From the NCBI GenBank assembly GCA_036867785.1, contig CP145413.1, positions 1,116,001 through 1,180,000 on the forward strand: a stretch of 64,000 nucleotides of DNA, written 5' to 3'. Shown in pieces: positions 6,685-64,000 of this stretch (positions are counted from its first letter, which is position 1; each line of letters starts with the position of its first letter). This DNA comes from Plasmodiophora brassicae. Its lineage: Eukaryota. The notes under the pieces are model-generated. The model had not been told where the DNA came from. It made no database searches and was given only the letters and a program-made list of their open reading frames with translations. The position numbers were made by a program, and so were the translations under genes.

Positions 6685-7674
6685 TCAGGACATATTCTTT
6701 ATTTCGCGCAGCTTTGCCATGGTTTGGATGTCGTCCCTGTGCAAACGGTTGTCAGTACTCGACCTTGTATCGTTACGTATCGCAGATCGCAAGACGAACG
6801 GCTGTTTGCCAGCAAAGGCGCGAACCGACGCCTGGCCAACACGCATGAACGGGTTGAATGTGCGCTCCTCGTCAATAGTTGACGGGACGGTCAGGTGCCC
6901 GCTGGCAACTTGCTTCATCGCCCATTCCATCTTCTCCCTAACGGCCCCGTTATCGGGCTCGACCCGGCTCGCGAACCGAAGATTCGCGACCGTGTATTCG
7001 TGGCCGCAGTAGATTAACGTGTCCCCAGGCAGCGATGCGATCACCTGCCAGAACCGTCAGATGAAAGGGCCATCAAACCGGCCTAATTCGTTTAACCGAG
7101 TTCAAATTGTGATGCATTTCCTTTGCGGAGCCCTCTACACATTGGCGTCAGTGATAATGTCGAAGTGTCTTGACCGCGCCGTACCAAAGAACCGCCCGCA
7201 TCCGCCGATGAATAGGGTATCGCCGGTAAACAGAGCCCGCTGATCCCCGAGCTGAGCAAAGTACAGGACGTGGCCTCTCGTCTACACAGGCGGTCCTGTT
7301 AGCAGGCACACTCGCACAATACGATAAGTGTCGTATACATGGCAGGGCACGGCCAGAACCGTCACTTCGATGTTTCCGAGTTTGAACACGGCGCGATCCG
7401 TGACTGGTTTCGTGCACGCGGGGACATTGTCGTCGCGCCCCCCAATGATCTCAATGTGCGGCATTCGCTGGGCGAAATACGGGTTGCCGGCCGCGTGATC
7501 GGCGTGCTTGTGCGTCGTCCAGACCTGCGACGGCGCCGACAGGCCCAGGCGCTCGCACTGTCCCATGACCGTCTCCGGCACAGCCGGGTCGACGACCGCG
7601 ACCTGGCCCGACTCGCGGTCCACGACGATATACGAGATGTTGTCCTCCAGCACCGGCACGGCGTGCACCTCCAT
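6685..7674 (-). CDS. GLO2: Hydroxyacylglutathione hydrolase (glyoxalase II), multi-exon
   Basis: Motifs VPVLEDNISYIV, THKHADHAAGN (THxHxDH), VPCH, LFTGDTLFIGGCGRFF, YCGHEYTVANLRFA and PSTIDEERTFNPFMRV. Confidence 0.93.
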
Positions 7675-48900: not shown

Positions 48901-51900
48901 CGACATATAACAAGGGCAAGCTGTGGGTCATGCATGTTTCGCAGGCACACTGCTACTGCGTCCTGAAGACTCTCAGCCAAGATGAACAGAGCAATTGCAG
49001 ACCAGAACCTGCGAATTCGCTAATTAAGCAAATAAAAGACCAGCGTGCACGACGTGCCCTCACTTTCGGGTAGATACAAACTCGAAGGCATTCTTGATAG
49101 CGGCACTGCGCCTAACCTCGACATACTCATTCAGGCTGAAAATACACGACGGTACACAGGCTTACCAACGAGCATCGTTGAAGTCCCGCGAAAAAAAATC
49201 CCACATTAGACGTTGGCCAGGGGACGATTTTAGCAATGCCAGGAACACAGACTTCTTGCCCAGCATCATATACCACAGCATGGCGCGAAGAGGGTTGCGA
49301 TCCTCCACAAACTGGTTCTTGGCAATGAATTCAACGACCCTGCGAAGCTCAGGGACCGACGTCAACCAGTACCCTGCTCCAAGGGCTTGGAACGCGTTCC
49401 AGTCGGGAATCGAGGGCGGAAAACACAGATGAGCCAGGGCGCTCTGTGACGATGAATGAAGTGCCCATGCAATGTCGACCTCGTCAAGCTGTGGCACCCT
49501 TCGCGATTGATGTGCGACCCGTTCGAATTCAAACAGGCGAGCCGCGACCATAAAGCGAGTTCCAGATATGTCCAAGTCTGCAGAATCTTGTTTAAGGCGC
49601 AGCAGCGTCCTAGCGACCACGACCAGTTGAAGGTTTTCTGGAGGCGTCAGCAAATGAATAGAACGCATGGTCAACGCTTCCGTTAAATCTGCCAGGTCCT
49701 TCTCCGAGAATGACACATGTTCCCTAGAGATGCTCGAATCTAACAAGACAGATAATGGAATCGCAGGAGCCATATCGTTTTGTTCCGTCACCGAATCAAT
49801 AACCATTGATACGATAGTCTCGACCATCTCAGAGTGCCCCGTCATGAGCAGTTCCGTCAACAGGGACGGGTGGTAGACAGGTACAGGCATAATCGAAGTG
49901 ATGGAATCGCCTGACAGCATGGACTCCACAACGACCATGTATCGGCCGGCAGCAATGAGAAGCGTGCCCGATTGCGAGCACGCCAACGCCGTAATCTGGC
50001 GACCAGATAGCAACGGGTGAGGAAGGTCGACACGGGCCTCGATTGTCTGCCAACGAAGCGACATGAATTCATGGTCACGCAGGACATGGTCTCGATTTGG
50101 CATGTGCATTTTAACGGAAAGCGACGTATCTGATGCCCTATCAACAGAAACCAACCGCAACAGACAGTCGCCGAGGTCAGCCCATCGAAGATAACTGGAT
50201 TGCGATTCCAAAGAATGAACAAAACGCAACGAAGGTGCTGTGGGGTCAACTTCCCAGACGGTAATCGTTACGCCACTCAGTACGGCGATTCTGTCAGCGA
50301 GCGGATCAAACGCAATGTCAACGATCGGGTCAGATAGCGTCCTCGACACAGGATGCTCAGTCCATTGCCAATCCGTCATCGATACGGACCAAAACTTGAG
50401 GTTCCGTCCTGAGCCGATGCACAGCCCTCCCAAGAGGCCGTCATCGTATAAGGCAAAGTCGAACGCGTCGATGGGTTCAGGGGCTGCAAGCTCTGAGACA
50501 TGACGAACGATCGGCGTCGATGATGGCACAGAGTATATGACCACCACATTGCGATAAACTACAGCAAGGAAAGGTTGGGAGCCTTTCTTTACCACACGTA
50601 AACCAACAAATGTCTCTCCATTCTGGACTCCTTCCAGAGGCGTTACTGTCCAACGCCCATTGGACGAACGAGAAAGAATGCAAACCGAAACACAATCGAC
50701 CGCTTGCCTGACCGTGAATAGGGCCGGCTCGCAAGGGTGCCAGTAAAGGTATTGAAATGGGCCCGGGAAGTCTGCGACGAGAAGCAGGCCTTCGCCGTGG
50801 GATTGGAATTCCAACGGGGACAAAGGGTGCAGACGGGCCATTTGCCAGATTACGACACGGCCCGAGTCGTCTCGGGAAGCAACGAAAGGTAGATCCTTGG
50901 AGCATTGTACGTCTCGAATCGGCGCAACATGACCTCCAGTGCTGGTTAGTCTTGAGACGATTCGATCCGGAACAGAAATCGATTCACAATCGATGCGTCC
51001 ATCAATATCAACGCCAGTGGCAAAGACGGTCTCGGGTTGAGGTTGCATTGCACCGGGCGCGACGTCAGACGGTGGACTTTCCCAGGAGCAGGGACGACTG
51101 AAGCATGCAGAGCAATGCAGAATAAACAATGACTTGTCAAGATGGTTCCATCCTGGCAACGAAATTCGATAAAACTCCAGAACGCGGACGACTGGACGCG
51201 GTTGAATAAAAGCACCGTCGACACAGGTGATGATCAAATGGCCGCTGTTATCAACAGTGGCGACCCAAAGAAGGCGTGTTTGGCGAGCATGCCCGTTTGA
51301 CGCATCCGCCACCGGCCTTTCAGTTGCCAAGCGGCGTTTCCTCATGACGATGAATGACGCACCCAGGATGTCGCTATACCTGGAGACGGCGACGAAGCCC
51401 CCATCAGCAAGTTCAATGTATAGAGTCGCGAACCCTCGCGAGTAAACAAACAATGCGTTCCTCAATGTCGCGTCAGTGCACCATTCCATCGTTGCTGTCG
51501 GACCGCCGATGGGGAACGACGATTTCAACTGAAGCGTGGGTGCTTTCATGCACATGATAGATACAGATTCCGAGGTTCGGAAGGCCAAGTGCCGAGAGTC
51601 AGGCGACGGATGCAGTCTTCCGGTACTGGAACCATTCCAGACACGAATTGCAGGATCATCGTTGGAGTCGTCACGAGCCCAGATGCCCTCTTCGTCCGCG
51701 TAAAGGATCCGGTTACCACTTCCCAGAGCGACCGCTACGACGTTGGTGGCCAACGGAAATGATGCGGAATCTTCGACACGACCGTCGTCTAGGTACTTCA
51801 ACGTGGCCAGGAATAGGCTACCAGTAGACTTGTCGACATAGACAGCCGCCACTCGAGACCGATCGGCATCAAGGGCGACAACATCGCCACCAACCGCAAC

Positions 51901-52044
51901 GACGCAGCGGGCGCCCCGACCGGGAACCCAGACAATGACGTGGTCACCGCGTCCCACAACAACCCTGTCGGTGCCCGGCACGCAACATGACAGCTGTTGC
52001 GATGTCGCGCCGCCCCATGACCCCACAAAGGCCTTCCTCGTCAT
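45962..52044 (-). CDS. Rav1/DmX-like (Rabconnectin-3 alpha) WD40 protein, V-ATPase assembly regulator, multi-exon
   Basis: Rav1p_C motifs WNAFQALGAGYWL, AKNQF..RNPLRAMLWY, FFSRDFNDARW, AAIKNAF and LQDAVAVCLRNMHDPQLALVICRL; WD40 repeats at both ends (NVRLWD, ISGDSDGCVRIWD). Confidence 0.88.
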
Positions 52045-52151
52045 CTGCTCGGCAATGGCCCCATGGCAGTCTGCAACCGCGGGGCCTGCAAAAATCGGAA
52101 CTACAGGTCCGTGCGTGTGTTTTGTGGAGCGCAGCGCGCGACACCCATTCC

Positions 52152-53413
52152 ATGCGACAGCAGGAGCTGCCGTTCTCTTACTGGGGGCTGCAATCCACCT
52201 ACTGGTCCTTCGTGCGCATTCTTATTTGCGACATATATCGACTGGGGGCCTTCCGTGAGCATCCTGGTCAGGCCGCGGGCTGACGTGCACAACTGCTGCT
52301 ATATGATTGTGGTGTCAGGCTGCAGTTTCTCGCTGTGCGGCCGCCCGATTCAGCGCGTCTGTATCGTCGGCGTTATCGTCGAGGCGCGCCTGCATGCGAC
52401 AAACCTGGTCGTCATGATCGACGACGGGACGGGTATTATATCGGCGACGTACTGGTTTAATGAACCAGGTAGCTGTGCGGATCACCTTGCTCTTGGCAAC
52501 CGGGTCCTCGTACATGGTCGACTGTCGACGTATAGAAATGAGCCCCAAATCCAGATCACATCTTCAGGTATCATCTATGTTATGTCATTCCTTAATACTG
52601 CGTTAATATGCGTTTGAGGTAGGTATCCTTCATGACCCAAATGCCGAAGTTCTTCACTGGATCCAAGCGGTTCATTTGTACCAAACCGTGTACAGTCAGC
52701 CAGATGCCGTTGCAGACTCTGTTAGGAGGACTATCGAGTCGTCGGCACCTTCGTTTACTTCTGCCCAGAGCACGAACTTGTCGGTCGGCACAGCCTTGCC
52801 TGGAACAGCATTCTCAAACGTTTCTTTGTAGGCCTTCCACTGCATCTGATGATCTGCGGAAATGCTGCATGCGTCTGTTCTCGCATGGAAACGCGCTTGC
52901 ATTCGCAGATATTTGTAATGACGATAACGTCGTCATGAAAGCCGCCGCCACCTTGAATTGCAGCGCATCCCCGAATGACATTGCTTTGGTACCTGGCGTG
53001 AGATTGCCTAGTGGTCGGAGGCAGGCTAAGCGTAAAGCATGCAGGCTGTCGCGAGAGCAATTGCCCAATGTGTTGCTCGTGGGCATTTGATCCAAGTTTG
53101 TGAAGGTCGCGACGAATACATGCTCCTGGACGCCAAGGCCCACCTTGCTGATCCTATTGTCCAAATCCTGCGGCACCAAAACCAGGTACGCGTCCGACGA
53201 TTCCCAGTGCCGCATAGAGTTCCTGACGTGGAATAGATTACCGTTTCCCAGTTGCGATCGCAGCTGTGCTCTCATCCACGTTACCGCGGGGTCAGCTTGG
53301 AATCTATCAAAGAAGCGATCAGATACCTCCAGTCTTTAGGAACCGTTAGCCTCGATTCAACAAACAAATACATCACGCTGTTATCATACGCCCACGTACG
53401 CGTTGCGTCGTAA
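52152..53413 (+). CDS. STN1: CST complex subunit STN1 (RPA2-like OB fold plus winged-helix-like C-terminus), multi-exon
   Basis: YWGLQSTYW, PIQRVCIVGVIV, IDDGTGII..YW, LGNRVLVHGRLSTYRNEPQI and DPNAEVLHWIQAVHLYQTVY. Confidence 0.75.
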
Positions 53414-53444: not shown

Positions 53445-55365
53445 TTATCTCTTCGCAGACGTCTCCGCTTGGCCAACGCCTTCCGAAATTGCCGTCTCGT
53501 TTACGGGCCAGCCAGTCGACACGAACAAGTCGAAGATCCTGTTCGTCTTGTTGACGTCAATCCGGAGGAGTTGGGATGGCACCGCGTTGAGCAGCCCTCG
53601 ACTTGAGCTCTCCTTGACAATGCGATCTTTCAGCGCCTTCAGTTGCAGAGGTTCAAGTCGAAGTTTCGTGCACAGAGCAATCTCGTGTGCGTTCAAGGCC
53701 TCGAAGCCCGGCTTGGACCGATCCAGCTGCCACGATGGGGATGCAGCAGTGCGGCGGGATACATCCTCCATCGGCTTCGGTGGTGCCCCTTCATCGTCGG
53801 CCTTGGATACTTCATTATCAGCACTCAAGCGCCGCCTCCGAGAAGATCCAGTCTGCTAACTTAAGTCTTAGCAGAGATGCTGACAGAGCCCGGTGCCTTC
53901 CAACTTACCAATTTCGGCCCCATCGATAGATAATCGACTTTGTCCTTGTCCTTGCGAAGCACTTTGTTTGCTTCGCGCTTCTTCTTTTCGATTTCATATT
54001 GAACACTTTCGCTAAGAGTTTGAATGCCCATTAGCCTGTGTTCCTGCAACTGTTCAATACGCTTCCGCAAACGGTTCTCATTGATGAGCCCTGCAAAGGG
54101 AAGTCAGGGACGCCCACTCTGGTATAGCGTGCGCCCGTACCCTGAATGAATTTCGCATGGTCTTCTTTGCTCTGAAACCGGGCAAAGCAGGCCATCTTCT
54201 GGCACAGATCGCGCTCTTCGCGACTGCGCTTTCGTCCCTAAAGACAGGAGATCAGCATCACCGTACGAAAGACCCTCGACGTGCAGTGCATACACTCGGT
54301 ATAAGAAGCTCACGGTCCAATATGAAATCCTTTCGACGCTGCCTTTCATCCAGCGTCTTGTTATAGATCGCGATGACGTCCAGCTTCAGACGTCGTTCTT
54401 CAGGGGAATCAGTCGGCAGGAACTCCATATCCGACAGGTACTTCTCGGCCTCGTTATCGTATTCCGTGTCGAAATCGCCTGATCCATGAGATCAGCACAA
54501 CCATCCATACGAACATAGGCAGCGTAACGAACCTCGCTTGGCGCAATACCCCACCATTCGCGCCAGGCTCTCCTGCGCTTTCGCAGGCGGCGCAGTCGAC
54601 GGTTTCGCGCTGCCTGCTTTCTTGCCCATCGACGCTGATGCCGGTTCCGCTCCCGGCTCCGACAGAATCGACAGTCTCCTGTCGATTGGGACGCTAACTG
54701 GACCATCCTTCTTATAGTCCTACACCGACCCGCTAAGCTTAAGAGTTCGATATTCCCGACAATGCCGCGCGTCGTACCTTGAAATCAAGAAGTGGGGCAT
54801 CCATCTGAGGGAGCGGTGCCGTCGCACCAGACAGATACACTGCAGTGTAATGCGCCTGGCACTTCTGTTTGGATTTCGTGCCGACGTATTCAGCGATGTC
54901 GGCCCAGTTCCCAAAGCCGCACGCCACGATGCCTTCGAGCAGCAAGCGCTCTTCGTCGGCGCCCCAATCCCGATCAAAAATCGGTTCGCTGATATACTCG
55001 ATGACGCGATACGGGTGGTCGTTCTTATGCGACAGCATTTCCACGCCCGTTGAGAAGCATTCCAAGCAGAGGTCGAAATCGGTGCATTCAGCGCACCGGA
55101 TTCGAACGGTCGTAGAAATATCCTTCCGGCAATAATCGCATTCGTAACGATTCGCACCGGCTGCAAACCCGAACCATGAGCGGTCGATCGAAACGCCACA
55201 ACCGACCACGACGATACCTTTCTTCTTGGGCGGTTCGACCACTTCCGGCACTTCCGGTTCGGGAGCTGCCGGCGCACTCGCCCGCCGCTGTCGTTTCTGT
55301 TCGCGTCTGTGAAAACTGTCAGCGGATGACGATATCGTCGTGAGCGTCGCGATCGCCTCACCCAT
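53445..55365 (-). CDS. ADA2: Transcriptional adaptor ADA2 (ZZ finger, SANT, SWIRM), multi-exon
   Basis: YECDYCRKDIS..RIRCAECTDFDLCLECF; WGADEERLLLEGI..GFGNWADIAEYVG; DFDTEYDNEAE; IDVNKTNRIFDLFVSTGW. Confidence 0.95.
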
Positions 55366-56423
55366 CCGTGTCGCCCATCGCGGCACACCGACCTACCGCG
55401 CACTGAACTGCTTCCGCAAAACTCCGTGACCATGACATACATCTCGCCAAGCAGGGCCTGTGAACACGACTAGGCACAAGCGAACAGGCGGCTGTGTACA
55501 CACGAAGGACGTCCTCGGGTGGCATAGGTTGCGATCACGCAAACGTGTCCGCTGCTGGGAAGGTCGACACGGATTTTGGCCAGAGGTCAGCGAAGATCAA
55601 GGCGCGTTTGCTGGACAACTGATGACAGGGCACACTCAATCTCGACGGAGTCCAGTTTCTTGCGAAGGAGTATAGGACCTTGGGGCTTCGTAAATGTCTG
55701 GCGCCGCGACACCTCGTTGCAGATACGTTCAACGCCGGTCAGTGTCGCACGGGACGGAGGTCGCTCTTAGTTTCTCGTACCGTGATGGTGGTGACGCCGA
55801 CAAGGATCGACAACGCCAGGCCTGGTGCCGCCATCTCGAGGTGCAGTATCGCGAATGCGAACATCACAGGCGGCAACGACACTGAGGTGATAGTGTCCAT
55901 TGATTTCAACCAGGAATGAACGTGGAGGTGTGCAGTGTTCACTGCATCGACTACCATAGCAGCGACTAACCGATCATCCGCTTCGTAAGCAACCCGTTCG
56001 CAACGGCAGCGAAATGGCATCACCTTCGTAGGCAACACGGTCGACTGCAGGTCTGCGCCATACTAAATGTGAGGTCGGCCATTGCAGGATCCAATCCAGA
56101 GCACTGCAGAACGACGAGACGCGCCAATACATAAAGTTCCGCTTCCGGGGCGAACCAGCAACCGCAGCAGCAACCGAGGCCATGATAAACCGACCCGAGA
56201 ACCAAATGAATCGGATCCGGATGAAGGTCGAGTAGGCCAGCGTGGTGCCGGTCGAATCATACATTGCCCGTGAATCGCAGGTAGTATACAGAAATAGTGA
56301 GGTTTGTGTGTCGAACGACGGCATATGTACCGGCATAAACTTGACATTCAATAGTCATCCAAGGAGTTCTGATTCGATGTGCTAGGCAACGGGAAGTTGA
56401 GTATGCACCAGTGACAGAGGGGA

Positions 56424-57244: not shown

Positions 57245-57458
57245 CGCCCGTCGTGCCAGCCGACCGCATCGTCCCACACGCAACCGCCGCAAGAGCATCC
57301 CGGGCGACGACGCTGGCGGCGGTCACCCCGCAACGGGACGGGGACAGTCCGAATGCAGTTCGTGCGCAGTCATCTGCACCGCCACATCATGGACCATCGC
57401 AGAGCACAACGCGCACACAACGACACAGTGGGGGAGGGGTGAATTCACAATTTCCGGC

Positions 57459-60400
57459 CTACGGCGACGCCACCTGGAAGCAGGTGTCGCTGAACCAGGC
57501 GTGGTCATCGAGGAAGTGGCCGACCACACGGAGGCCCGCCTTGGCCGCGAACGCCTCGATCTGCGCCAGGTCGTACTTGTACGAATTCTGCCCCCCGGGC
57601 ACCGGTTAGCGTGTCGCACGGTGGTGCCCGCCACGCGCGCGGTTTACCTCGACGTGGATCGATTCGCGCGCCCGGAAGGGTATTTCCAGACGGCGCCCGT
57701 CGCCGTCGACCGTCACGACCAGGTCCTGCTTGGCGACCAGGTGGCTCTCCATGCGGCGACGGTCCGGATTGAACAGCGCCTCGTGCTCGAACTGTTCGCG
57801 CACGATATCCCCGCCCAGCTCGCGATTGATCCGATCCAGCAAGTTGTAGTTGAACTCGGCCGTCACCCCTGCGTCACGTCAGCAAACCGCTTGCCGTGTT
57901 TGAACAACACGAGGCGTTTCTGACCGGCGGCGTCGCTGTAGGCATCGACCATAATGGAATGGTTCTCCTTGACGAGGTCGAAACCAACGATCAACAGATC
58001 GCCAATGTTCAACGCTTCGCGGAGGTCGCGTAGAAGGGCCCCCGCTTTGTCACTGTCATAGTTGCCGATGGAACTGCCCAGGAACAGGACGACATTCGAC
58101 ATGCCCGGCCGGTCGACCTTCGTGGTCCAGCGCAGCGCTTCAACATTGTCACCGAGCAGCAACGTGGCATCGTCGACGTCGACCGCTGACGAGCGCAGGA
58201 CGCTGTGCAGCGCGTTCAGAGCGCCCTGGGAGATGTCGATCGCCGTGTACGACAGCTGGATGCCACGCGAGCGGAGCGCTCGCAGGAACGGGATCGTCTT
58301 CGTCCCATCACCTTCCGCAACGTCAGGCGCTTCCCGCGATGGATTCGCGAGTGGCCCCGACCTGCACCAATCTCGATCAGGTTCACCGAGGCCGGGTTCG
58401 CCAGCCTGGTCAGCAGGTCGGCGATCGCCGGTGCGTGCTTCTGCAGGATGTGGGCCTCCGTCCGCGTCAGATAGTACTCCTTCGTTTCCGTTATCTTCGT
58501 GTACCTGACGCGACGGTTAGCTTGCCAGCGGATCGAGCAATGCAGAACGAATCGCTTCCAGTTCCGATCCACGATCATCGTAGAAGTGCACGGAATCGAT
58601 ACGTTTCGGGTTAGAGCACAGCCCGACACGAACGTCGCCAGCGAACCGATCCGCCGCCGACGCGCTGCCCCAACCCGGGAGCGTCGCGAATCGCATGCGT
58701 TCGCGGCCAGCAACGACGTCACGACAGATGCGGAACTTGGCGAACGGGTAGATGTAATTCCTCTGGTACCTGTGCCACACAACCGCCCCGTTACGAAGAG
58801 AGGCCCAGCTGACGAGCTGGGGGCGAGCAGCAGACCAGTTCCGGAACGAGGGGCGCGTTAGGTTCTCGGTCGTCGCCCAGGATCCCCCTTTCATCACATA
58901 ATGCTTGCCTAGAGCGGGGGCATTCGTTCAACATTGGACCGTGGTACGTCTCTCGGCGGTTCACTGGTACCGTCGAAGAAATCGGCCGAGTAGCCGGGGT
59001 ACGACGCCACCGGTACGAAGTCTTTGGGATCGCCCAGAGGAGCGAACGGCGTTGACGTCCACTCCCATCCGTTGCCAACCAGGTCCCGCACGCCGAACGG
59101 GCTCGCTATTGACCAGCTGAGTTCGCAACGGTCGTCCGTCCAGCGACGACGCCCCGCACCTGAGTTCGACTCGTGCACAGGCTGCGTTCCCCAGTGCCGA
59201 AAGTTGATGTTGACGTCGGCACGCGCGGGGCCCTCGTCTCCCCATGGGAACCGGGCGCGAGCATCACCGTATGCAGCGCGATGATATTCTACACGCAGCA
59301 AACCGGTGTCGACACATCTGAACGGTGAGTCGTTCGGTGGGGACGTTACCGGGTTCGGTCATAAGGCGCCCGCCATGGGACCGGCAGTACGCCTCCGCTT
59401 CGGCGTTCGAGACGAACACGGGATGGTCGGCCACCTCTGACAGCGGCACGTACTCGAACAGCGTTCGCACCAGCCTGCGAGCGGTGCGTCATCAGAGCAA
59501 GATCGGGCGCACGGACGCGTGACCTTGACCATTGCCCCGAGGCATCGTCGCGCTTCCACAGCGCCGGGTGTCGAACCTGGTCCCGGACGATCCACTGCCA
59601 GATGTCTGGTGCCCAGCTGGATTCCTCGCTGTAGGCGCCTTGTCCGACCCATTCCAGGTACTCTGCGTTCGTGACCGGAAGCGATTGCACGTGGAAGGCG
59701 CCCACCTCAACCGACACCTGCGGGAACTCATTGTCCCATCCGACTACGAGCAGCGTTACGAGGTCATCGACGGCAGCGGTTCGGCAATGGGCGTACAGGA
59801 TGTGTCAGAGCGCGCCATGCCCAGGACGGCCGTTCCATCTGGGACGGTGCACTGAACACGGTCCCACGTCGTCGTGCCCGCTGCTCCTGGACGGCGCTCG
59901 GGCACCGATTCGGGACGCGACACGTGCATGGGATCGCATTGCATCATCATGTACAGCAGCGCTGGCAGGGGCGGTCAGCAACGCGGGCACATCCTGAGGC
60001 GGTCGCCGTACGTACTCTCTTGGTGCATCTGCTCGTGCTCGACGATGATATCGACGACGCCGCCGAGGCGCATCTCGTGCAGTGTACCGATGCACCCGAC
60101 GACACGACGGCGGACGTCGTTGACGTAGTGGACGACCGCATCCATGGCCGGCCAAATGTCTTTGTTCGCATCAGCACTGTGCGCATGGCACTCGCCTGTG
60201 GTCACGTCCGGGTCCATGCCACGCTCGCTACGTTCGTTCCAGCACGATCAGCGCCCCGGGGGGACGTATCGCACAAAGTACATACAAGAGAGCGTCGAAG
60301 TCGACGTTGCCCCGGCGTGGAGCGCGTTTGCCCAAGGCGGCGACAACCTGGTTCATGGCGAACGCCGGCAGGTGGCCGACGTAGAACAGGAACGGGTGCC

Positions 60401-60542
60401 GCAACGCGATGGGTCGCAGCAGGAACCCGTCACCGTTCAGGCAGGAGAAGATCTGGTCCGTCCTTGCCCATGTTTCGCGCAACTCCAACGCTTTCGTCAG
60501 CGTCTTCGAATCCGGGCTGCCTTCCACAACGAACGACGCCAT
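57459..60542 (-). CDS. Ergothioneine-type bifunctional enzyme, copy B: N-terminal EgtB/Egt1-like sulfoxide synthase fused to C-terminal EgtD-like histidine methyltransferase (12 exons; one intron has a GG donor)
   Basis: RHPFLFYVGHLPAF, FERGMDPDV, EHEQMHQETLLYM, FGWDNE, GNGWEWT, YPGYSADFFDG and KGGSWAT..FRNWYQ. Then PKRIDS..FYDDRGSEL, EYYLTRTE, IEIGAG, FLGSSIGN, GFDLVK, AYSDAAGVTAEFNYNLL and IHVENSYKY. Confidence 0.88.
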
Positions 60543-60923
60543 GCACTGTGGCGTTCGTTAAACAGAATGCGGGTCGACCGTATGACTGGCCCGAAGGTGG
60601 GCGACCGACGTTCTCGATAACGCGGCAGAGACCCGATGGTGCCCCGTTCCAGAAGACCGCCCGCCGACGTGAAGTCGCACGTGGGGGATGCTGGATGATT
60701 TCTAGCCCAGACGACGAGTGGGAGCGCGACCCCCGTATAACGGCCTGCATTTACCCAGAGAAGCGTCGCTCTGTGACTGTGTAGGGCCAGGCCGCCTAGC
60801 CCTTCGATTGAGTGACCCACGCGAACGAATCTACGATGCGTTTTCGGTTGCTGATCGAAGATTCAGCGTCGACATCTTGCCAGGTCACATGTGCCAGGCC
60901 CATCGGCAACGGAGGACGCTGGT

Positions 60924-63900
60924 CTATTTGGAGACAACTTGGAAACACGTATCGGTGAACCAGGACTTGTCGTCGAGGAAGTGGTGGACCACGTGCAACC
61001 CGACCTTTCCTGCGAACGTCTCGATCTGCCCCAGCTCGTACTTGTACGAATTCTGTGAGCGACGCTGTCGTTTAGGGCATGATCGCTGTGCGGTTAGTGT
61101 GCCGCGATACCTCAATGTGAATGGTTTCACGTGCCCGGAACGGGACCGCCAGACGCTGCCCGTCTTCATCGCCGTCGATGGAGACGACCAGGTCCTGGCT
61201 GGCGACCAGGTGGCTCTCCATCCGGTTGTGCACCGGGTTGAACAACGCCTGGTGCTCAAAGCGAATGCGATCGAAATCGCCGCCCAGTTCGCGATTGACA
61301 CGATCCAGCAAGTTGTAGTTGAATTCGGCGGTCACGCCTGCAGGCAGAAACCTTCAGCAAACCGCTCGACATGCAGGTAGCAACCGCCCCTGACCAGCTG
61401 CGTCGCTGTAGGCATCAATCATAATGGAGTGGTTCTCCTTGACGAGGTCGAAACCAACGATCAACAGATCGCCAACGTTCAACGCATCGCGAAGGTCGTG
61501 TAGAAGGGCCTCCGCTTTGTCATTGTCGTAGTTGCCGATGGAGCTGCCCAGGAACAGGACGACATTCGACATGCCCGGCCGGTCGACCTGCGTGGTCCAC
61601 CGCAGGGCCTCAACGTTATCCCCGAGCAAGAACGTCGCATCGGTGACGTCGACCGCCGACGAGCGCAGGGCGCCTTGCAACGCGTCCAGCGCGCCCTGGG
61701 AAATATCGATCGCAGTGTACGACAGCTGGATGCCACGAGACCGAAGCGCTTGCAGCAATGGGATCGTCTTCTTCCCGTCACCTGCCACAGCCATGGGTTG
61801 GGAACGCGTCGTGCGATCAGCGAACATTCATGGCTAACCCGACCTGCACCGATTTCGATCAGGTTGATGGACGACGGGTTCGGCAGCAGCGTCAGGACGG
61901 CAGCGATCGTTGGCGCATGGTCCTGCAGGATCCGCGTCTCCGTCCGCGTCAGGTAGTACTCCTCCGTTTCCGTGATCATCGCGAACCTATTCGGATTAGG
62001 GGGACCATGCCAGGAAGCACATCTGGCAACCGCTCACAGTTCCGATCCGCGGTCATCATAGAAGTGCATGGAGTCGATGCGCTTCGGGTTCGAGGACAGC
62101 CCAGCACGAACGTCGCGTGCGAACCGACCCTCCAACGACTGCTTGTTCCACCCCGGCAGCGTCACGAACCGGTACGACGTACCGACACTGGCGTCGCGCT
62201 CGTCCGCCTCAATGTCGCGACAGATTCGGAACTTGGCGAACGGGTAGACGTAATTCTTCTGGTACCTGTGCCAGTGTGGGTTCAGACGTCGACGCGCACG
62301 TTTACAGATGACAGGGGCGCAGCGAACCAGTTCCGGAACGACGGGCGCGTCATGTTCGTCGCTGTTGCCCACGATCCCCCCTTCATCACGTAATGCTTCC
62401 CTATCGTGACAGTATCAGGTACCCGCGTCCAGGTTCGATGGCCATTGTCGGTACCGTCGAAGAAGTCGGCCGAGTACCCGGGGTACGATGGCATCGGTGT
62501 GAATTGCAGAGGGTCGCCCAGCGGCATGAACTGGGAAGACGTCCACTCCCACCCGTTGCCAATCAGGTCGCGCACCCCAAACGGGCTCGCTGCGAACCGT
62601 TAAGCGCCAGGCGAAGGGAGCGTCGGCCACAACGCACCTGAATTCGACTGCCACACAGGTTGGGTACCCCAATGCCGAAAGTCAACGTTAACGCCGGCCT
62701 GCTCAGGAGCATCATTGCCCCATGGAAACGGATGACATGTGTCACCGTATGCAGCGCGATGATACTCTACGTCAAACGCATTTTGACATCGTGTACGGAA
62801 GCGAGCGTCGGCTTCAGCGTACCGGGTTCGGTCATGAGTCGACCGCCATGGGACCGGCAGTACGCATCTGCTTCGGCGTTCGAGACGAACACCGGATGGT
62901 CGGCGACTTCCGACAGGGGTACGTACTCGAAAAGCGTACGCACCATCCTGTGGCAGTAAACGTGGGCACACAACCATCCGCTTCAGCGCAGTACTGACCA
63001 CTGCTTTGAGACATCGTCGTACCTCCACAGCGCCGGGTGTCGAATCTGGTCCCGCACGATCCACCGCCAGACGTCTGGTGGCCAGTTGGACTCGACCGTG
63101 TACGCCCCTCCGTCGACCCACTCCAGGTACTCTGCGTTCGTGACAGGAAGCCGTTGCACACGAAAGGCGCCAACGTCAACGGACACCTGCGGAAACTCGT
63201 TGTCCCATCCGACTATCAACAGCATTAGAAAATCACCGACAAGCGGTTCGGCAATGGCATACAGGTCGTGGCACAGCGCGACATGCCCAGCACAGCCTTT
63301 CCCCCAGGGATGGTGCACTGCACCGGTTCGCATGACGCCTTATGCATTGGAGTCAGCGGGCGCTCCCGAAGCGATTCGGGCCGCGACAGGTGCACGGGAT
63401 CGCATTGCATCATCATGTACAACAGTGCTGCAAGGAGACAGCCATCAGAAGCACAGCTCACGCATGGCAAGGCCGCATTACTCTCTTGGTGCATCTGCTC
63501 GTGCTCGATGATGATGTCGACGACATATCCGAGGCGCATCTCAAGCAGGACCTCGACGCACCCCAGGATTCGCTGTCGAGTATCACAAGCATACTTGACG
63601 ACGTCATCAATCGCCGGCCAGACGTCGTTGTTCGCATCGGCGCTGTGCGCGTGACATTCCCCTGTTAGCACGTCCGGGTCCATGCCACGCTCACTACACA
63701 CAGTAAGGGCAGTGTCCAGTTGGAACCGTTGCATGGTGCACGTACAACAGAGCATCGAAGCTGGCGTTGGCGCGAACTGGAGCGAGCTTCCCCAGGGCGA
63801 GGGCGACCTGGTTCATGGCGAACGCGGGTAGGTGGCCGACGTAGAACAGGAACGGGTGCCGCAACGTGATGGGGCGCAGCAGGAACCCGTCGGCAGACAG

Positions 63901-64000
63901 AAAGGAGAAGACCTGGTCCGACCTCGCCCATGCTTTCTGCAGCGCCGCTTCCGTCTTTGTTGACATTGCTCGCGGGTACTGCTCCTTCACGAACGATGCC
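60924..64000 (-). CDS. Ergothioneine-type bifunctional enzyme, copy A (same EgtB-EgtD fusion; the ATG is cut by the window edge)
   Basis: Same motifs and intron positions as copy B. The window ends in (AT)G GCA TCG TTC GTG, giving MASFV as in copy B. All donors checked are GT. Confidence 0.9.

What the first reader, a model, noticed from the sequence alone, without database searches (positions are those of the whole stretch)
57459..64000. Tandem pair of EgtB-EgtD fusion genes with domain order reversed relative to fungal Egt1
Seen: two adjacent intron-rich genes each encode an Fe(II) sulfoxide synthase (GH...HxxxHxE triad, FGE-like domain, YPGYS Tyr motif) followed by an EgtD-type methyltransferase. 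Established: fungal Egt1 has the methyltransferase first; ovothiol synthase OvoA has the sulfoxide synthase first but a different methyltransferase family. Here the synthase motifs (FERGMDPDV, NWYQ.NY.Y) are Egt1-like and the order is OvoA-like. Inference: this is an independently assembled eukaryotic thiohistidine (probably ergothioneine) biosynthesis enzyme, possibly from a fused bacterial egtB-egtD operon, that gained 11 introns and then duplicated. The paralogs could differ in sulfur or selenium donor or in life stage.
Basis: partly seen in the sequence, partly recalled or inferred. Interest (0 to 1): 0.85.

Follow-up and report, generated by a model that had tools for sequence, protein, structure and literature searches.

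The report
Clubroot pathogen's tandem ergothioneine-synthesis genes
Two neighbouring, spliced genes of the clubroot pathogen Plasmodiophora brassicae each fuse a sulfur-inserting iron enzyme to a histidine methyltransferase, and very probably make the antioxidant ergothioneine, a pathway otherwise described in eukaryotes only for fungi.

Summary
On the minus strand lie two paralogous genes: gene 1 (60542..57459) and gene 2 (63999..60924, running off the window). Each reads DinB_2 + FGE-sulfatase sulfoxide synthase, then an EgtD-type methyltransferase. Each has 12 introns in the window, not 11. They match public Plasmodiophora brassicae protein models exactly. Spliced contigs from three studies show that each gene's two halves are co-transcribed.

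- The public model of gene 2 carries a further N-terminal PLP domain of the ACC-synthase-like aminotransferase fold, encoded outside the window. Two unrelated metagenome proteins share this three-domain layout.
- Synthase-then-methyltransferase order is common in bacteria, both as fused proteins and as egtB-egtD gene pairs.
- The synthase domain groups, with moderate support, with fungal Egt1 and other fused proteins. This group is sister to a bacterial clade.

Active-site residues predict hercynine plus cysteine as substrates, hence ergothioneine rather than ovothiol. The annotated gene 1 model is wrong at introns 4 and 9. Intron 9 has a GG donor and is retained in one data set.

Verdict: a new variant of a known kind, of moderate interest. 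The possible single-chain complete pathway is the novel part.

The parts
57459..60542 (-). Gene 1: sulfoxide synthase fused to an EgtD-type methyltransferase. ATG at 60542-60540, stop TAG at 57461-57459, 13 exons.
   Evidence: All 802 of 802 residues of public model P0001 map exactly. Pfam hits on the whole model. Spliced contigs in X1, X3 and X4.
58724..60485 (-). Gene 1 sulfoxide synthase module: DinB_2 at 60485..59960 and FGE-sulfatase at 59848..58724, introns included.
   Evidence: Pfam on P0001: DinB_2 residues 20-157, E 4e-10; FGE-sulfatase residues 195-454, E 4.1e-41. Coordinates. Iron ligands H57, H150, H154 and Tyr405.
57474..58642 (-). Gene 1 EgtD-type methyltransferase module (Methyltransf_33).
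   Evidence: Pfam PF10017, E 9.7e-81, residues 482-798. NCBIfam egtD 257 bits against a cut-off of 290.9. Coordinates.
58505..58559 (-). Gene 1 intron 9 as the RNA-derived contigs imply it: 55 nt with GG..AG ends, at the position homologous to gene 2's GT..AG intron 9. It is retained in the X4 contig, which then reads a stop after ...RGSELEAIRSALLDPLAS.
   Evidence: The table 8 piece ends at 58503 in X1 and X3, and runs unbroken over 58360-58767 in X4. Contig lengths are 1742 against 1797 nt. The contig ends are fixed by exact repeats at 60370-60406 and 58074-58119. The joint row itself was among the 10 not shown.
59475..59529 (-). Gene 1 intron 4, probably 55 nt (donor GTCAAG at 59529) rather than the annotated 49 nt (donor at 59523).
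   Evidence: The contigs are 6 nt shorter than the annotated model predicts. The candidate donor is listed. Using it removes a 2-residue insertion ('SR') that no homolog has. This is inferred; the joint row was not shown.
60543..60923 (-). Spacer of 381 nt between the gene 2 stop and the gene 1 start. It is too short to hold a PLP domain for gene 1.
   Evidence: RNA-like contigs of X1 and X3 run unbroken over 60377-61052, across the spacer. This does not show a single transcript.
60924..64000 (-). Gene 2, the part in the window: sulfoxide synthase plus EgtD-type methyltransferase. Stop TAG at 60926-60924. The 5' end runs off the window.
   Evidence: 806 of 806 residues of P0002 from 'ASFVKEQ' onward map exactly. 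All 12 of its 12 introns in the window appear as joints in X1, X3 and X4, and none in the DNA run X15.
62223..63945 (-). Gene 2 sulfoxide synthase module: DinB_2 at 63945..63426 and FGE-sulfatase at 63317..62223.
   Evidence: Pfam on P0002: DinB_2 residues 386-523; FGE-sulfatase residues 560-817, E 1.2e-38. Coordinates.
60939..62123 (-). Gene 2 EgtD-type methyltransferase module.
   Evidence: Pfam PF10017, E 7.2e-88, residues 851-1169. NCBIfam egtD 279 bits. Histidine-site residues conserved.
57416..57458 (-). Probable 3' untranslated end of gene 1. One X3 contig carries adapter plus oligo-T as a loose end at 57416, which would be a poly(A) tail on the minus strand.
   Evidence: table 7. One contig only, so a hint.

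Best explanation
These are two tandem paralogs of an ergothioneine-biosynthesis gene of Plasmodiophora brassicae.

In each protein:
[quoted passage not shown] This is inferred from family and conserved substrate-site residues.
- The N-terminal non-heme Fe(II) sulfoxide synthase (DinB_2 + FGE-sulfatase) joins cysteine to C2 of hercynine with O2, giving hercynylcysteine sulfoxide. This is inferred from the active-site pattern it shares with EgtB-IV and fungal Egt1.

Gene 2, by its public model, has in addition an N-terminal PLP domain of the ACC-synthase-like aminotransferase fold. This domain would cleave the C-S bond to release ergothioneine, so that one chain holds the whole pathway. This step is inferred from position and precedent only.

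Gene 1 is a 5'-truncated duplicate without the PLP domain. Both copies are transcribed, spliced and under purifying selection.

The synthase-then-methyltransferase order mirrors bacterial egtB-egtD operons. The synthase lineage is the one that fungi carry in Egt1.
For: Shown:
- Domain order in both genes.
- Exact match to P. brassicae models.
- Splicing and co-transcription: 15 of 15 listed joints occur in each of X1, X3 and X4 and in 0 contigs of DNA run X15. One 1760-nt contig links synthase and methyltransferase exons of gene 2, and its length equals the genomic span 61560..63859 (bounds taken from the k=31 repeat rule) minus introns 1-10. A 1742-nt contig does the same for gene 1.
- Purifying selection: dN/dS is 0.26 for the synthase, 0.22 for the methyltransferase and 1.2 for the 25-codon linker, at dS 0.58.

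Synthase type:
- The best solved relative is EgtB-IV (8vih, 183 bits). OvoA (8khq) and EgtB-I (4x8b) score 138 bits each.
- Both copies read R-Y-H-D-H-M-H-Y-Y-N-W-Y-Y at 13 active-site positions. On the same alignment, true OvoA reads ...Y-F-(F/Y)-(A/H)-F-F and classic EgtB-I reads ...N-W-D-R, as published (motifs from bioRxiv 10.1101/2024.04.10.588772, passages).
- The pattern is identical in a named fungal Egt1 (P0349). The preferred substrates of Egt1 are hercynine and cysteine (PMC11664081, passages).

Methyltransferase:
- PF10017 at E 1e-80 or lower; the best NCBIfam model is egtD.
- Of the nine histidine-site residues named for EgtD, gene 2 keeps Tyr39, Phe47, Tyr56, Asn166, Tyr206, Thr213, Glu282 and Ser284, with Thr163 changed to Ser. 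Gene 1 with the RNA-supported splice has in addition Phe47 changed to Tyr (PMC8593015 passages; alignments).

PLP domain:
- Aminotran_1_2, E 1.5e-30, in P0002. The same three-domain order occurs in P0004 and P0284 as uninterrupted proteins.
- The catalytic Lys is aligned with that of ACC synthase.
- Hydra OvoB-OvoA is a precedent for an N-terminal lyase on a sulfoxide synthase (PMC8433421, passages).
Against: - No biochemical or metabolite data exist for this organism.
- All curated NCBIfam cut-offs are missed: egtD 257 and 279 against 290.9; ovoA_Nterm 238 against 400; EgtB 201 against 360. The highest-scoring synthase model is in fact ovoA_Nterm.
- The strict published EgtB-IV motif ends in N-W-F. 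Here it is N-W-Y.
- The PLP domain lies outside the window, so I could check neither its DNA nor its splicing.
- The PLP domain is no relative of the known thiohistidine lyases. Pfam gives PF00155, not the class V family of EgtE/Egt2. No OvoB structure appears among the 29 PDB hits.
- In P. brassicae two positions conserved in ACC synthase differ: DEIY reads DEVL and FRVG reads LHVG.
- Gene 1 has a non-canonical intron 9 donor, and one data set retains that intron. This would stop translation before the methyltransferase.
Confidence: 0.72

Rival explanations
1. The product is an ovothiol-type 5-thiohistidine, perhaps N-alpha-methylated like ovothiol B or C. The synthase belongs to the OvoA-like branch and would sulfurize C5, while the EgtD-like domain would add N-alpha methyl groups.
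For: ovoA_Nterm is the highest-scoring NCBIfam synthase model: 238 bits against 201 for EgtB. The synthase sits on the OvoA/EgtB-IV side of the family. It shares R-Y-H-D with true OvoA and is separated from classic EgtB by a 100/100 branch.
Against: At the positions that separate OvoA from hercynine-using enzymes it reads N-W-Y, like EgtB-IV and Egt1, not (F/Y)-A-F. True OvoA forms its own clade away from it. The methyltransferase is EgtD-type, not the Methyltransf_11/12/25 type of OvoA. EgtB-IV shows that OvoA-like sequence can go with EgtB chemistry.
Confidence: 0.08
2. Origin: a bacterial egtB-egtD operon was taken up by a plasmodiophorid ancestor and fused by loss of the stop codon. It then gained introns and duplicated, independently of fungal Egt1.
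For: 77 of the best 80 bacterial loci have the synthase gene directly followed by egtD. In 76 of those 77 the two are in the same frame, and in 70 of 77 only a stop codon interrupts the two open frames. These synthases carry the EgtB-IV pattern. The closest standalone relatives, at 44-49% identity, are bacterial. The methyltransferase lies among unnamed standalone EgtD-like proteins, away from the fungal Egt1 methyltransferase.
Against: In the careful synthase tree the gene does not nest in the operon-bearing clades. It sits in a clade with P0004, P0284, Mantamonas P0028, P0092 and fungal Egt1 (UFBoot 93, SH-aLRT 90). That clade is sister to the Binatia/Rokuibacteriota-type standalone clade. 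The three loci of that type among the best 80 (L071, L078, L080) have no egtD within 6 kb. The 'same frame' count is biased, because the 80 loci were picked by tblastn against a fused query. The methyltransferase data reject neither one clade of the six non-fungal fusions (p-AU 0.53) nor one clade that also includes fungi (p-AU 0.163).
Confidence: 0.3
3. Gene 1 no longer makes a bifunctional protein in this isolate. The intron 9 donor is GG, the intron is retained, and translation stops after the synthase. This would give a stand-alone sulfoxide synthase or a decaying copy.
For: The X4 contig runs unspliced over 58360-58767 with 0 differing letters. DNA run X15 carries the same letters. X4 and X15 share one organism label. 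The retained intron reads ...RGSELEAIRSALLDPLAS then a stop. The canonical cryptic GT..AG alternative (58572..58505) would shift the frame.
Against: Contigs of X1 and X3 are 55 nt shorter, which fits removal of the homologous intron in frame. The resulting peptide, HFYDDRGSELYTKITETKEYY, matches the family consensus without a gap. The methyltransferase half of gene 1 shows dN/dS 0.22 and no stops. Contigs cannot give proportions.
Confidence: 0.2
4. The locus is bacterial contamination or an assembly artefact.
For: The closest standalone relatives of both domains are bacterial or unnamed metagenome proteins.
Against: There are 12 short introns per gene. 23 of the 24 annotated introns have GT..AG ends, and contigs of three studies have the listed introns removed where the DNA run keeps them. 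The flanking genes are eukaryotic housekeeping genes: Rav1p_C, an OB-fold/Stn1-like protein and ADA2. The models come from two assemblies, on contigs of 1.54 and 1.48 Mb.
Confidence: 0.01

Closest known systems
Fungal Egt1 (bifunctional EgtD-EgtB enzyme of Neurospora, S. pombe and others)
   Same: Both have an EgtD-type methyltransferase and a sulfoxide synthase on one chain. The 13-position synthase pattern is identical to that of the named fungal protein P0349. The synthase domains share a clade at UFBoot 93, SH-aLRT 90. Egt1 prefers hercynine and cysteine (PMC11664081, passages).
   Different: The domain order is reversed: methyltransferase then synthase in all 7 fungal-type proteins examined, synthase then methyltransferase here. 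Identity is only 28-32% for the synthase and about 30% for the methyltransferase. The fungal methyltransferase is a separate long branch. Gene 2 has an extra PLP domain.
Bacterial EgtB-IV with adjacent EgtD (structure 8vih; operons in Acidobacteriota and others)
   Same: It is the best solved relative, at 183 bits. The gene order is the same. It shares the R-Y-H-D-H-H-Y...N-W core. Its chemistry is cysteine onto C2 of hercynine (bioRxiv 10.1101/2024.04.10.588772, passages).
   Different: Two genes rather than one in all 77 loci that hold both. It reads N-W-F where the gene here reads N-W-Y. Identity is 37-46%. There are no introns, and no PLP gene within 6 kb in any of 80 loci.
Bacterial fused EgtB-EgtD proteins (for example Caulobacter sp. 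D4A, 719 aa; C. segnis, 724 aa)
   Same: Synthase then methyltransferase on one chain; 37 such proteins among the 78 examined. The Atlas shows 8 clusters with both domains, for example of 59, 81 and 325 members.
   Different: Their synthase is the classic EgtB type: 23-31% identity to this one, an H-H...Q...N-F-F or D-H...Q...N-W-D-R pattern, and the other side of the 100/100 split.
OvoA, and the Hydra OvoB-OvoA fusion
   Same: OvoA also has the synthase first and a methyltransferase last. Hydra adds an N-terminal PLP lyase, the same three-part layout as gene 2. It is described as the only reported single chain with all three ovothiol activities (PMC8433421, passages).
   Different: The methyltransferase family differs: Methyltransf_11/12/25 in OvoA, Methyltransf_33 here. 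The regiochemistry positions differ. The PLP domain here is ACC-synthase-like, and no OvoB structure appears among its PDB hits.
EgtE / Egt2 and OvoB (known thiohistidine C-S lyases)
   Same: PLP-dependent fold-type I enzymes. They have the role proposed here for the N-terminal domain of gene 2.
   Different: That EgtE and Egt2 are class V aminotransferase-fold enzymes is my recollection. The domain here is PF00155, and its closest solved relative is plant ACC synthase (85 bits), then PatB C-S lyase (42 bits). If it is the lyase, it was recruited separately.

Membership tests
Non-heme iron sulfoxide/selenoxide synthases (EgtB/OvoA superfamily) | DinB_2 domain followed by an FGE-sulfatase domain | tested here: met
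   P0001: DinB_2 E 4e-10, FGE-sulfatase E 4.1e-41. P0002: E 4.6e-07 and 1.2e-38. All are above Pfam gathering scores.
Non-heme iron sulfoxide/selenoxide synthases (EgtB/OvoA superfamily) | Three-histidine iron site and catalytic tyrosine | tested here: met
   H57, H150, H154 and Y405 are present in both copies. They align with the same residues in EgtB-IV, OvoA and EgtB-I structures. That these residues are the iron ligands and the catalytic tyrosine is recalled from the EgtB structure literature.
EgtB-IV (published composite motif RxYH--DxHxHYxNWFx) | All specified motif residues | tested here: not met
   R, Y, H, D, H, H, Y, N and W are met. The final specified F is Y in both copies (motif). 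The Acidobacteriota-type proteins on the same alignment meet the motif fully, which serves as a control.
OvoA (5-histidylcysteine sulfoxide synthase) | NCBIfam TIGR04344 above its cut-off of 400 bits | tested here: not met
   238 bits for P0001 and 237 bits for P0002. True OvoA scored 598-694 bits in 4 of 301 genomes.
OvoA (5-histidylcysteine sulfoxide synthase) | Motif ...HYF(Y/F)AF and a C-terminal Methyltransf_11/12/25-type domain | tested here: not met
   Reads Y-Y-N-W-Y here, against Y-F-(F/Y)-(A/H)-F in the true OvoA controls. The C-terminal domain is PF10017.
EgtB, classic (TIGR03440; types I and II) | Model score above 360 bits; EgtB-I or EgtB-II composite motif | tested here: not met
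   201 and 194 bits. The motif differs at the first positions and at Q137. It lies on the opposite side of a 100/100 branch.
EgtD (L-histidine N-alpha-methyltransferase) | Methyltransf_33 domain over its full length | tested here: met
   Profile positions 2-303 of 304, E 9.7e-81 for P0001. Positions 1-303, E 7.2e-88 for P0002.
EgtD (L-histidine N-alpha-methyltransferase) | NCBIfam equivalog TIGR03438 above 290.9 bits | tested here: not met
   257 bits for P0001, whose N-terminal motif is mis-spliced in the model, and 279 bits for P0002. EasF, the next model, scores 139-155 against a cut-off of 205.6.
EgtD (L-histidine N-alpha-methyltransferase) | Histidine-site residues Tyr39, Phe47, Tyr56, Thr163, Asn166, Tyr206, Thr213, Glu282, Ser284 | tested here: met
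   Residues named in PMC8593015 (passages). They were located through the 4pim alignment of P0028 and alignment A1. Gene 2 keeps 8 of 9, with Thr163 changed to Ser. Gene 1 with the RNA-supported splice keeps 7 of 9, with Phe47 to Tyr and Thr163 to Ser.
Fungal Egt1 | Methyltransferase N-terminal, synthase C-terminal | tested here: not met
   The order is reversed here. All 7 fungal-type proteins examined have methyltransferase then synthase.
Fungal Egt1 | Synthase domain of the Egt1 lineage | tested here: inconclusive
   A shared clade at UFBoot 93, SH-aLRT 90, with a warning that long branches meet (P0092 with the fungi). The 13-position pattern is identical to P0349.
OvoB / EgtE / Egt2 (thiohistidine C-S lyases) | Sequence membership of the PLP domain of gene 2 | tested here: not met
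   None of the 29 PDB hits is named OvoB, EgtE or Egt2. The best is ACC synthase at 85 bits, then PatB at 42 bits. Pfam gives PF00155. Lyase activity itself cannot be tested with these tools.
ACC-synthase-like PLP enzymes | Catalytic lysine and PLP-site residues | tested here: inconclusive
   The lysine of 'SLSK' aligns with 'GLSK'. DEIY reads DEVL and FRVG reads LHVG in P. brassicae. P0004 and P0284 read DEIF and DEMY, and WKVG and AKVG.

The most novel reading that the evidence does not exclude
Gene 2 encodes a natural single-chain ergothioneine synthase: lyase, sulfoxide synthase and histidine trimethylase in one polypeptide. Its lyase module would be an ACC-synthase-like PLP domain, recruited independently of EgtE/Egt2 and OvoB. 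This would be the ergothioneine counterpart of the Hydra OvoB-OvoA fusion. The pathogen would then make its own ergothioneine. That could bear on the unexplained report that external ergothioneine inhibits germination of its resting spores (PMC10094275, passages).

A bolder corollary: the tandem array (synthase-methyltransferase, then synthase-methyltransferase again) is the intermediate expected if the Egt1 order (methyltransferase-synthase) arose by permutation through duplication.
Probability: 0.4. Interest if true: 0.75.

Novelty: new variant of a known kind. Interest (0 to 1): 0.55.

Why it matters
Reviews describe the eukaryotic ergothioneine pathway through fungal Egt1 and Egt2 only (PMC11664081, passages).

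- **A second eukaryotic form.** Here a rhizarian plant pathogen carries the pathway in a different architecture. A Mantamonas transcript and unnamed metagenome proteins are related to it. The Egt1-type synthase lineage is therefore wider among eukaryotes than fungi, and it was joined to EgtD in both orders.
- **A possible one-gene pathway.** If the three-domain protein is active, a single gene would convert His, Cys and SAM to ergothioneine. That is of practical interest for production strains.
- **Clubroot research.** Plants are not known to make ergothioneine (my recollection). A pathogen-made pool could protect plasmodia or resting spores from host oxidants and could serve as a marker of infection. 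The one study of ergothioneine and clubroot did not consider that the pathogen has these genes: its text has 0 mentions of Egt1, EgtB or EgtD.

Tried and rejected
- **Whole genome.** None is held for the window. I could not read the PLP exons of gene 2 or look for a separate Egt2-like gene.
- **The look-up of sequencing runs.** No RNA holder listed. The lay of contigs was used instead.
- **A recollection of mine.** I recalled that Methylobacterium egtBD is a fused gene. [quoted passage not shown]
- **More three-domain genes.** A metagenome scan with an alignment of the three PLP domains gave 80 loci at 25-32% identity. None of the 80 carried a synthase or EgtD domain. The contig of P0284 itself was not recovered.
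- **PLP genes near bacterial relatives.** tblastn with the PLP domains against the 80 bacterial loci gave no hit.
- **Atlas search with the PLP part.** Only generic aminotransferase clusters.
- **Methyltransferase trees.** The clade holding the gene is unresolved. Neither AU test rejects its constraint, so the methyltransferase cannot decide the origin.
- **Literature.** 'Plasmodiophora' + 'ergothioneine' gave 5 papers. The three I opened do not treat pathogen genes, and two were seen only in the listing. Among the 15 papers listed of 218 for ergothioneine or plasmodiophorid terms, none holds 'ergothioneine'. A search for a lyase domain fused to a sulfoxide synthase in ergothioneine work listed 19 of 21 papers, and no listed title or abstract start describes a natural three-domain enzyme. 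These searches cover open-access text only.
- **Not followed up.** The long open frames around the synthase in two Pseudomonadota genomes.
- **Structure and complex prediction.** Not run. The alignment of PLP domains has only three rows, and no binding claim is made.

Full report
**What is in the sequence**

Both genes lie on the minus strand. Pfam scans of the stop-to-stop pieces of 57459-60557 and of 60924-63999 give DinB_2, then FGE-sulfatase, then Methyltransf_33, in colinear order in each gene.

A search with one clean exon (window 57926-58309, minus strand) returned two public proteins:
- P0001: 802 aa, 100% identical, named by NCBI 'Histidine-specific methyltransferase SAM-dependent domain-containing protein [Plasmodiophora br...'.
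- P0002: 1173 aa, 88% identical.

A script mapped P0001 letter for letter onto 13 exons, 60542..57462 (802 of 802 residues), followed by stop TAG 57461-57459. It mapped P0002, from 'ASFVKEQ' to its end, onto 13 exons, 63999..60927 (806 of 806 residues), followed by stop TAG. So there are 12 introns per gene in the window, of 48-66 nt, at matching positions in the two genes.

The neighbours are ordinary eukaryotic genes: Rav1p_C, an OB-fold/Stn1-like protein and ADA2. No whole genome is held for this window.

**Transcription and splicing**

The run search listed no holder on record as RNA. I laid the contigs of three RNA-like runs from three studies (X1, X3, X4) and of one DNA run (X15).
- 15 joints are listed and 10 more were not shown. 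All 15 have CT..AC ends on the plus strand. All 15 occur in one contig each of X1, X3 and X4, and in no contig of X15. They are therefore removed introns.
- The 15 comprise all 12 introns of gene 2 in the window and 3 introns of gene 1.

Contig ends obey the k=31 rule at the exact repeats shared by the paralogs (60370-60406, 58074-58119, 57960-58005). This fixes the genomic span of each contig.
- Gene 2: the span 61560..63859 minus introns 1-10 (540 nt) gives 1760 nt, which is exactly the contig length in all three runs. One contig thus links the synthase exons to the methyltransferase exons.
- Gene 1: the span 58090..60399 is 2310 nt, which is the length of the X15 contig. The annotated model predicts 1751 nt. 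X1 and X3 have 1742 nt and X4 has 1797 nt.

The X4 contig runs unbroken over 58360-58767, so it retains intron 9. Its length requires 513 nt to be removed, which is 6 more than the annotated introns 1-8 and 10. This fits a donor 6 nt upstream in intron 4: GTCAAG at 59529. Using it removes a two-residue insertion that no homolog has.

The X1 and X3 contigs are 55 nt shorter than the X4 contig, and their exon 10 piece ends at 58503. This fits removal of 58559..58505, the intron homologous to gene 2's intron 9.
- Its donor reads GGAAGC where gene 2 has GTGAGC.
- This joint gives ...HFYDDRGSELYTKITETKEYY..., which matches the family consensus without a gap.
- The annotated joint (58572..58521) gives ...YDDPNRRVRYTK..., which no homolog shows.
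- The canonical alternative 58572..58505 would shift the frame. Retention gives a stop after ...LLDPLAS.
- The joint row itself was among those not shown, so this step is arithmetic, not a direct reading.
- Either the GG donor is spliced, or the isolates behind X1 and X3 differ at that base. X4 and X15 share one organism label.

**Selection**

Using the RNA-supported intron 9, the two copies differ by dS 0.58 and dN 0.15. dN/dS is 0.26 over the synthase (453 codons), 0.22 over the methyltransferase (320 codons) and 1.2 over the 25-codon linker. Intron identity between the copies is 57-74%. Both halves of both copies have therefore been kept by selection since an old duplication.

**The third domain**

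P0002 begins with an Aminotran_1_2 domain (residues 19-366, E 1.5e-30) that reads on into the synthase as '...GVRRLASFVKEQ...'. A second P. brassicae model from another assembly (P0279, 1209 aa) reads the same. The window begins at 'ASFV', so I could not check this part at the DNA or RNA level.

Independent support comes from two unnamed metagenome proteins with the same order on uninterrupted chains:
- P0004: 1271 aa, ENA.
- P0284: 1008 aa, JGI, cut at its N-terminus.

Gene 1 starts 'MASFV...', which aligns with 'RLASFV' at the end of the PLP domain of gene 2. Only 381 nt separate the two genes. Gene 1 is therefore most simply a duplicate cut at the domain border.

The closest solved relatives of the PLP domain are plant ACC synthases (85 bits), then PatB cystathionine beta-lyase (42 bits). 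No OvoB, EgtE or Egt2 entry is among the 29 hits. The catalytic lysine aligns. Two other conserved positions differ in P. brassicae.

**Which synthase**

- Solved relatives: EgtB-IV (8vih) 183 bits, OvoA (8khq) 138, EgtB-I (4x8b) 138, EgtB-II 67, SenA 52.
- NCBIfam: ovoA_Nterm 238 bits, EgtB 201, SenA 201. All are below their cut-offs.

Published composite motifs separate the subfamilies (bioRxiv 10.1101/2024.04.10.588772, passages). On my alignment of 47 proteins the controls behave as published:
- True OvoA, taken from genomes scoring over the cut-off, reads R-Y-H-D-H-I-H-Y-F-(F/Y)-(A/H)-F-F.
- Three bacterial MT-then-SS fusion proteins (P0335, P0341, P0347) read ...D-H...Q...N-W-D-R, the published EgtB-I motif.
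- Three Caulobacter-type proteins (P0287, P0308, P0319) read H-H...Q...N-F-F, the published EgtB-II motif.
- All 10 Acidobacteriota-type proteins read the full EgtB-IV motif, ending N-W-F.

Both P. brassicae copies read R-Y-H-D-H-M-H-Y-Y-N-W-Y-Y. So do P0004, P0284, P0092, the named fungal Egt1 P0349, and 9 of the 14 Binatia/Rokuibacteriota-type proteins (4 of the 14 read N-W-F and 1 has Leu for Met153).

The N-W pair goes with hercynine-using enzymes, whereas OvoA has (F/Y)-A there. EgtB-IV and Egt1 use cysteine and hercynine. Hence the prediction of C2 chemistry and ergothioneine.

**Which methyltransferase**

- PF10017 covers the full profile length. egtD is the best NCBIfam model, at 257 and 279 bits against a cut-off of 290.9.
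- The histidine-site residues named for EgtD (PMC8593015, passages) were placed through the 4pim alignment and alignment A1. Gene 2 keeps 8 of 9. Gene 1 keeps 7 of 9 with the RNA-supported splice.

**How common the architecture is**

- Among the 150 best representatives for the EgtD exon, only 4 are long proteins with the methyltransferase at the C-terminus: P0001, P0004, P0092 and the partial P0028.
- P0028 is a transcript of the protist Mantamonas plastica (EukProt).
- A search restricted to 441-1404 aa gave 80 proteins. By local BLAST, of the 78 other than the two P. brassicae proteins: 37 are synthase then methyltransferase, 1 is the three-domain P0284, 16 are methyltransferase then synthase (9 bacterial-type and 7 fungal-type, two of which NCBI names as fungal), and 24 carry EgtD with other partners.
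- The 37 include Caulobacter proteins named by NCBI. Their synthase is only 23-31% identical to this one.
- The Atlas shows 8 clusters with both domains, mostly Pseudomonadota.
- A paper states that most EgtB homologs are co-encoded with or fused to EgtD (PMC8433421, passages).
- The order alone is therefore not new.

**Bacterial relatives**

The synthase domain's best 118 relatives are standalone proteins of 441-483 aa at 44-49% identity. The few that carry names are from Binatia, Eisenbacteria and Methylomirabilota assemblies.

A scan of species genomes found 586 loci, of which the best 80 were kept. Of these 80:
- 77 have the synthase gene followed directly by egtD.
- In 76 of those 77 the two genes are in the same frame.
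- In 70 of the 77 a single stop codon is all that separates the two open frames. In the three loci I inspected (L001, L002, L067) the layout is stop, one codon, then ATG.
- This regularity is partly a selection effect, because the loci were ranked by tblastn against a fused query.
- None of the 80 has a relative of the PLP domain within 6 kb.

In a sample of 301 Pseudomonadota genomes, 37 have an OvoA-like match at E 1e-60 or lower, and 4 of these are over the OvoA cut-off. This tally includes two unpublished genomes, G029 and G157. Nothing else in this report rests on them.

**Trees**

Careful synthase tree, 47 rows, supports given as UFBoot/SH-aLRT:
- Classic EgtB is split off at 100/100.
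- True OvoA and the two operon-type EgtB-IV clades lie outside the group of interest.
- The two P. brassicae copies (100/100) join P0284 + (P0004, P0028) at 84/48.
- P0092 joins fungal Egt1 at 95/94, with a warning that long branches meet.
- All twelve form one clade at 93/90. This clade is sister to the Binatia/Rokuibacteriota-type clade at 88/90.

Methyltransferase trees are poorly resolved. Fungal Egt1 is a separate long branch. The P. brassicae domain lies among unnamed standalone EgtD-like proteins, together with the other fusions. AU tests reject neither one clade of the six non-fungal fusions (p 0.53; the constrained tree is 2.05 log units better) nor one clade that also includes the fungi (p 0.163).

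The data thus allow one origin of the synthase-then-methyltransferase fusion in this group, and a synthase lineage shared with fungi. They prove neither.

**Literature**

- No paper in the searched library links P. brassicae to genes for ergothioneine. 'Plasmodiophora' + 'ergothioneine' gave 5 papers.
- PMC10094275 (passages) reports that 0.1 mM ergothioneine inhibits resting-spore germination. It says the reason could not be inferred, and it does not mention Egt1, EgtB or EgtD.
- PMC11476981 and PMC12430220 only cite that paper. PMC12300438 and PMC13139148 were seen only in the listing.
- A 2024 review presents the eukaryotic pathway as Egt1 plus Egt2 of Neurospora (PMC11664081, passages).
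- The Hydra OvoB-OvoA fusion is called the only reported single chain with all three ovothiol activities (PMC8433421, passages).
- I found no report of an ergothioneine counterpart. These searches cover open-access text only.

**Verdict**

The 'reversed order' is ordinary in bacteria. Three things are new relative to the texts I could search:
- the presence of this pathway in a plasmodiophorid;
- a group of related fused proteins, one of them from the protist Mantamonas, that joins the Egt1-type synthase to EgtD in the other order;
- a three-domain form with an ACC-synthase-like PLP domain.

Function is inferred throughout. Nothing has been assayed.

Noticed in passing
L001-L080 (bacterial loci, mostly Acidobacteriota), around locus positions 7250-7400: In 70 of the 77 loci that hold both genes, the EgtB-IV-type gene and egtD lie in the same frame with only a stop codon between the two open frames. 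In the three loci inspected the layout is stop, one codon, ATG. This may reflect tight translational coupling or occasional read-through, but the loci were ranked by tblastn against a fused query, which favours this layout.
   Followed up: partly
window 60377-61052: RNA-like contigs of X1 and X3 run unbroken from the last exons of gene 2, across the 381-nt spacer, into exon 1 of gene 1. The untranslated regions may overlap, or transcription may read through. A contig cannot show a single transcript.
   Followed up: no
window 62913: The X4 contig reads G where the window has A (plus strand). The position lies inside exon 5 of gene 2. It is probably a strain difference. The effect on the codon was not worked out.
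   Followed up: no
window 49162-52221 (-), 52021-52617 (+), 54739-55392 (-): The neighbouring open frames hit Rav1p_C (RAVE complex), an OB-fold/Stn1-like domain, and the ADA2 ZZ + Myb domains. These are housekeeping genes with no visible link to thiohistidine synthesis.
   Followed up: partly
L183 4270-7410 (-) and L184 4775-8026 (-): In two unnamed Pseudomonadota genomes the EgtB-IV-type synthase lies at the end of open frames of 1046 and 1083 aa. These may be real N-terminal extensions, or long frames that arise by chance in G+C-rich DNA. egtD follows in another frame.
   Followed up: no
proteins P0285, P0286, P0288, P0292-P0295: EgtD-type domains fused behind glycosyltransferase domains (PF00534, PF13692) in metagenome proteins of about 500-670 aa. 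This could be a link to selenosugar or selenoneine chemistry.
   Followed up: no
protein P0310 (EukProt, Galdieria): A red-alga protein carries an EgtD-type domain at its C-terminus behind iron-alcohol-dehydrogenase-type domains (PF00465, PF13685).
   Followed up: no
window 57416: One X3 contig ends with adapter plus oligo-T as a loose end, about 43 nt beyond the gene 1 stop codon. It is a likely polyadenylation site of gene 1.
   Followed up: no
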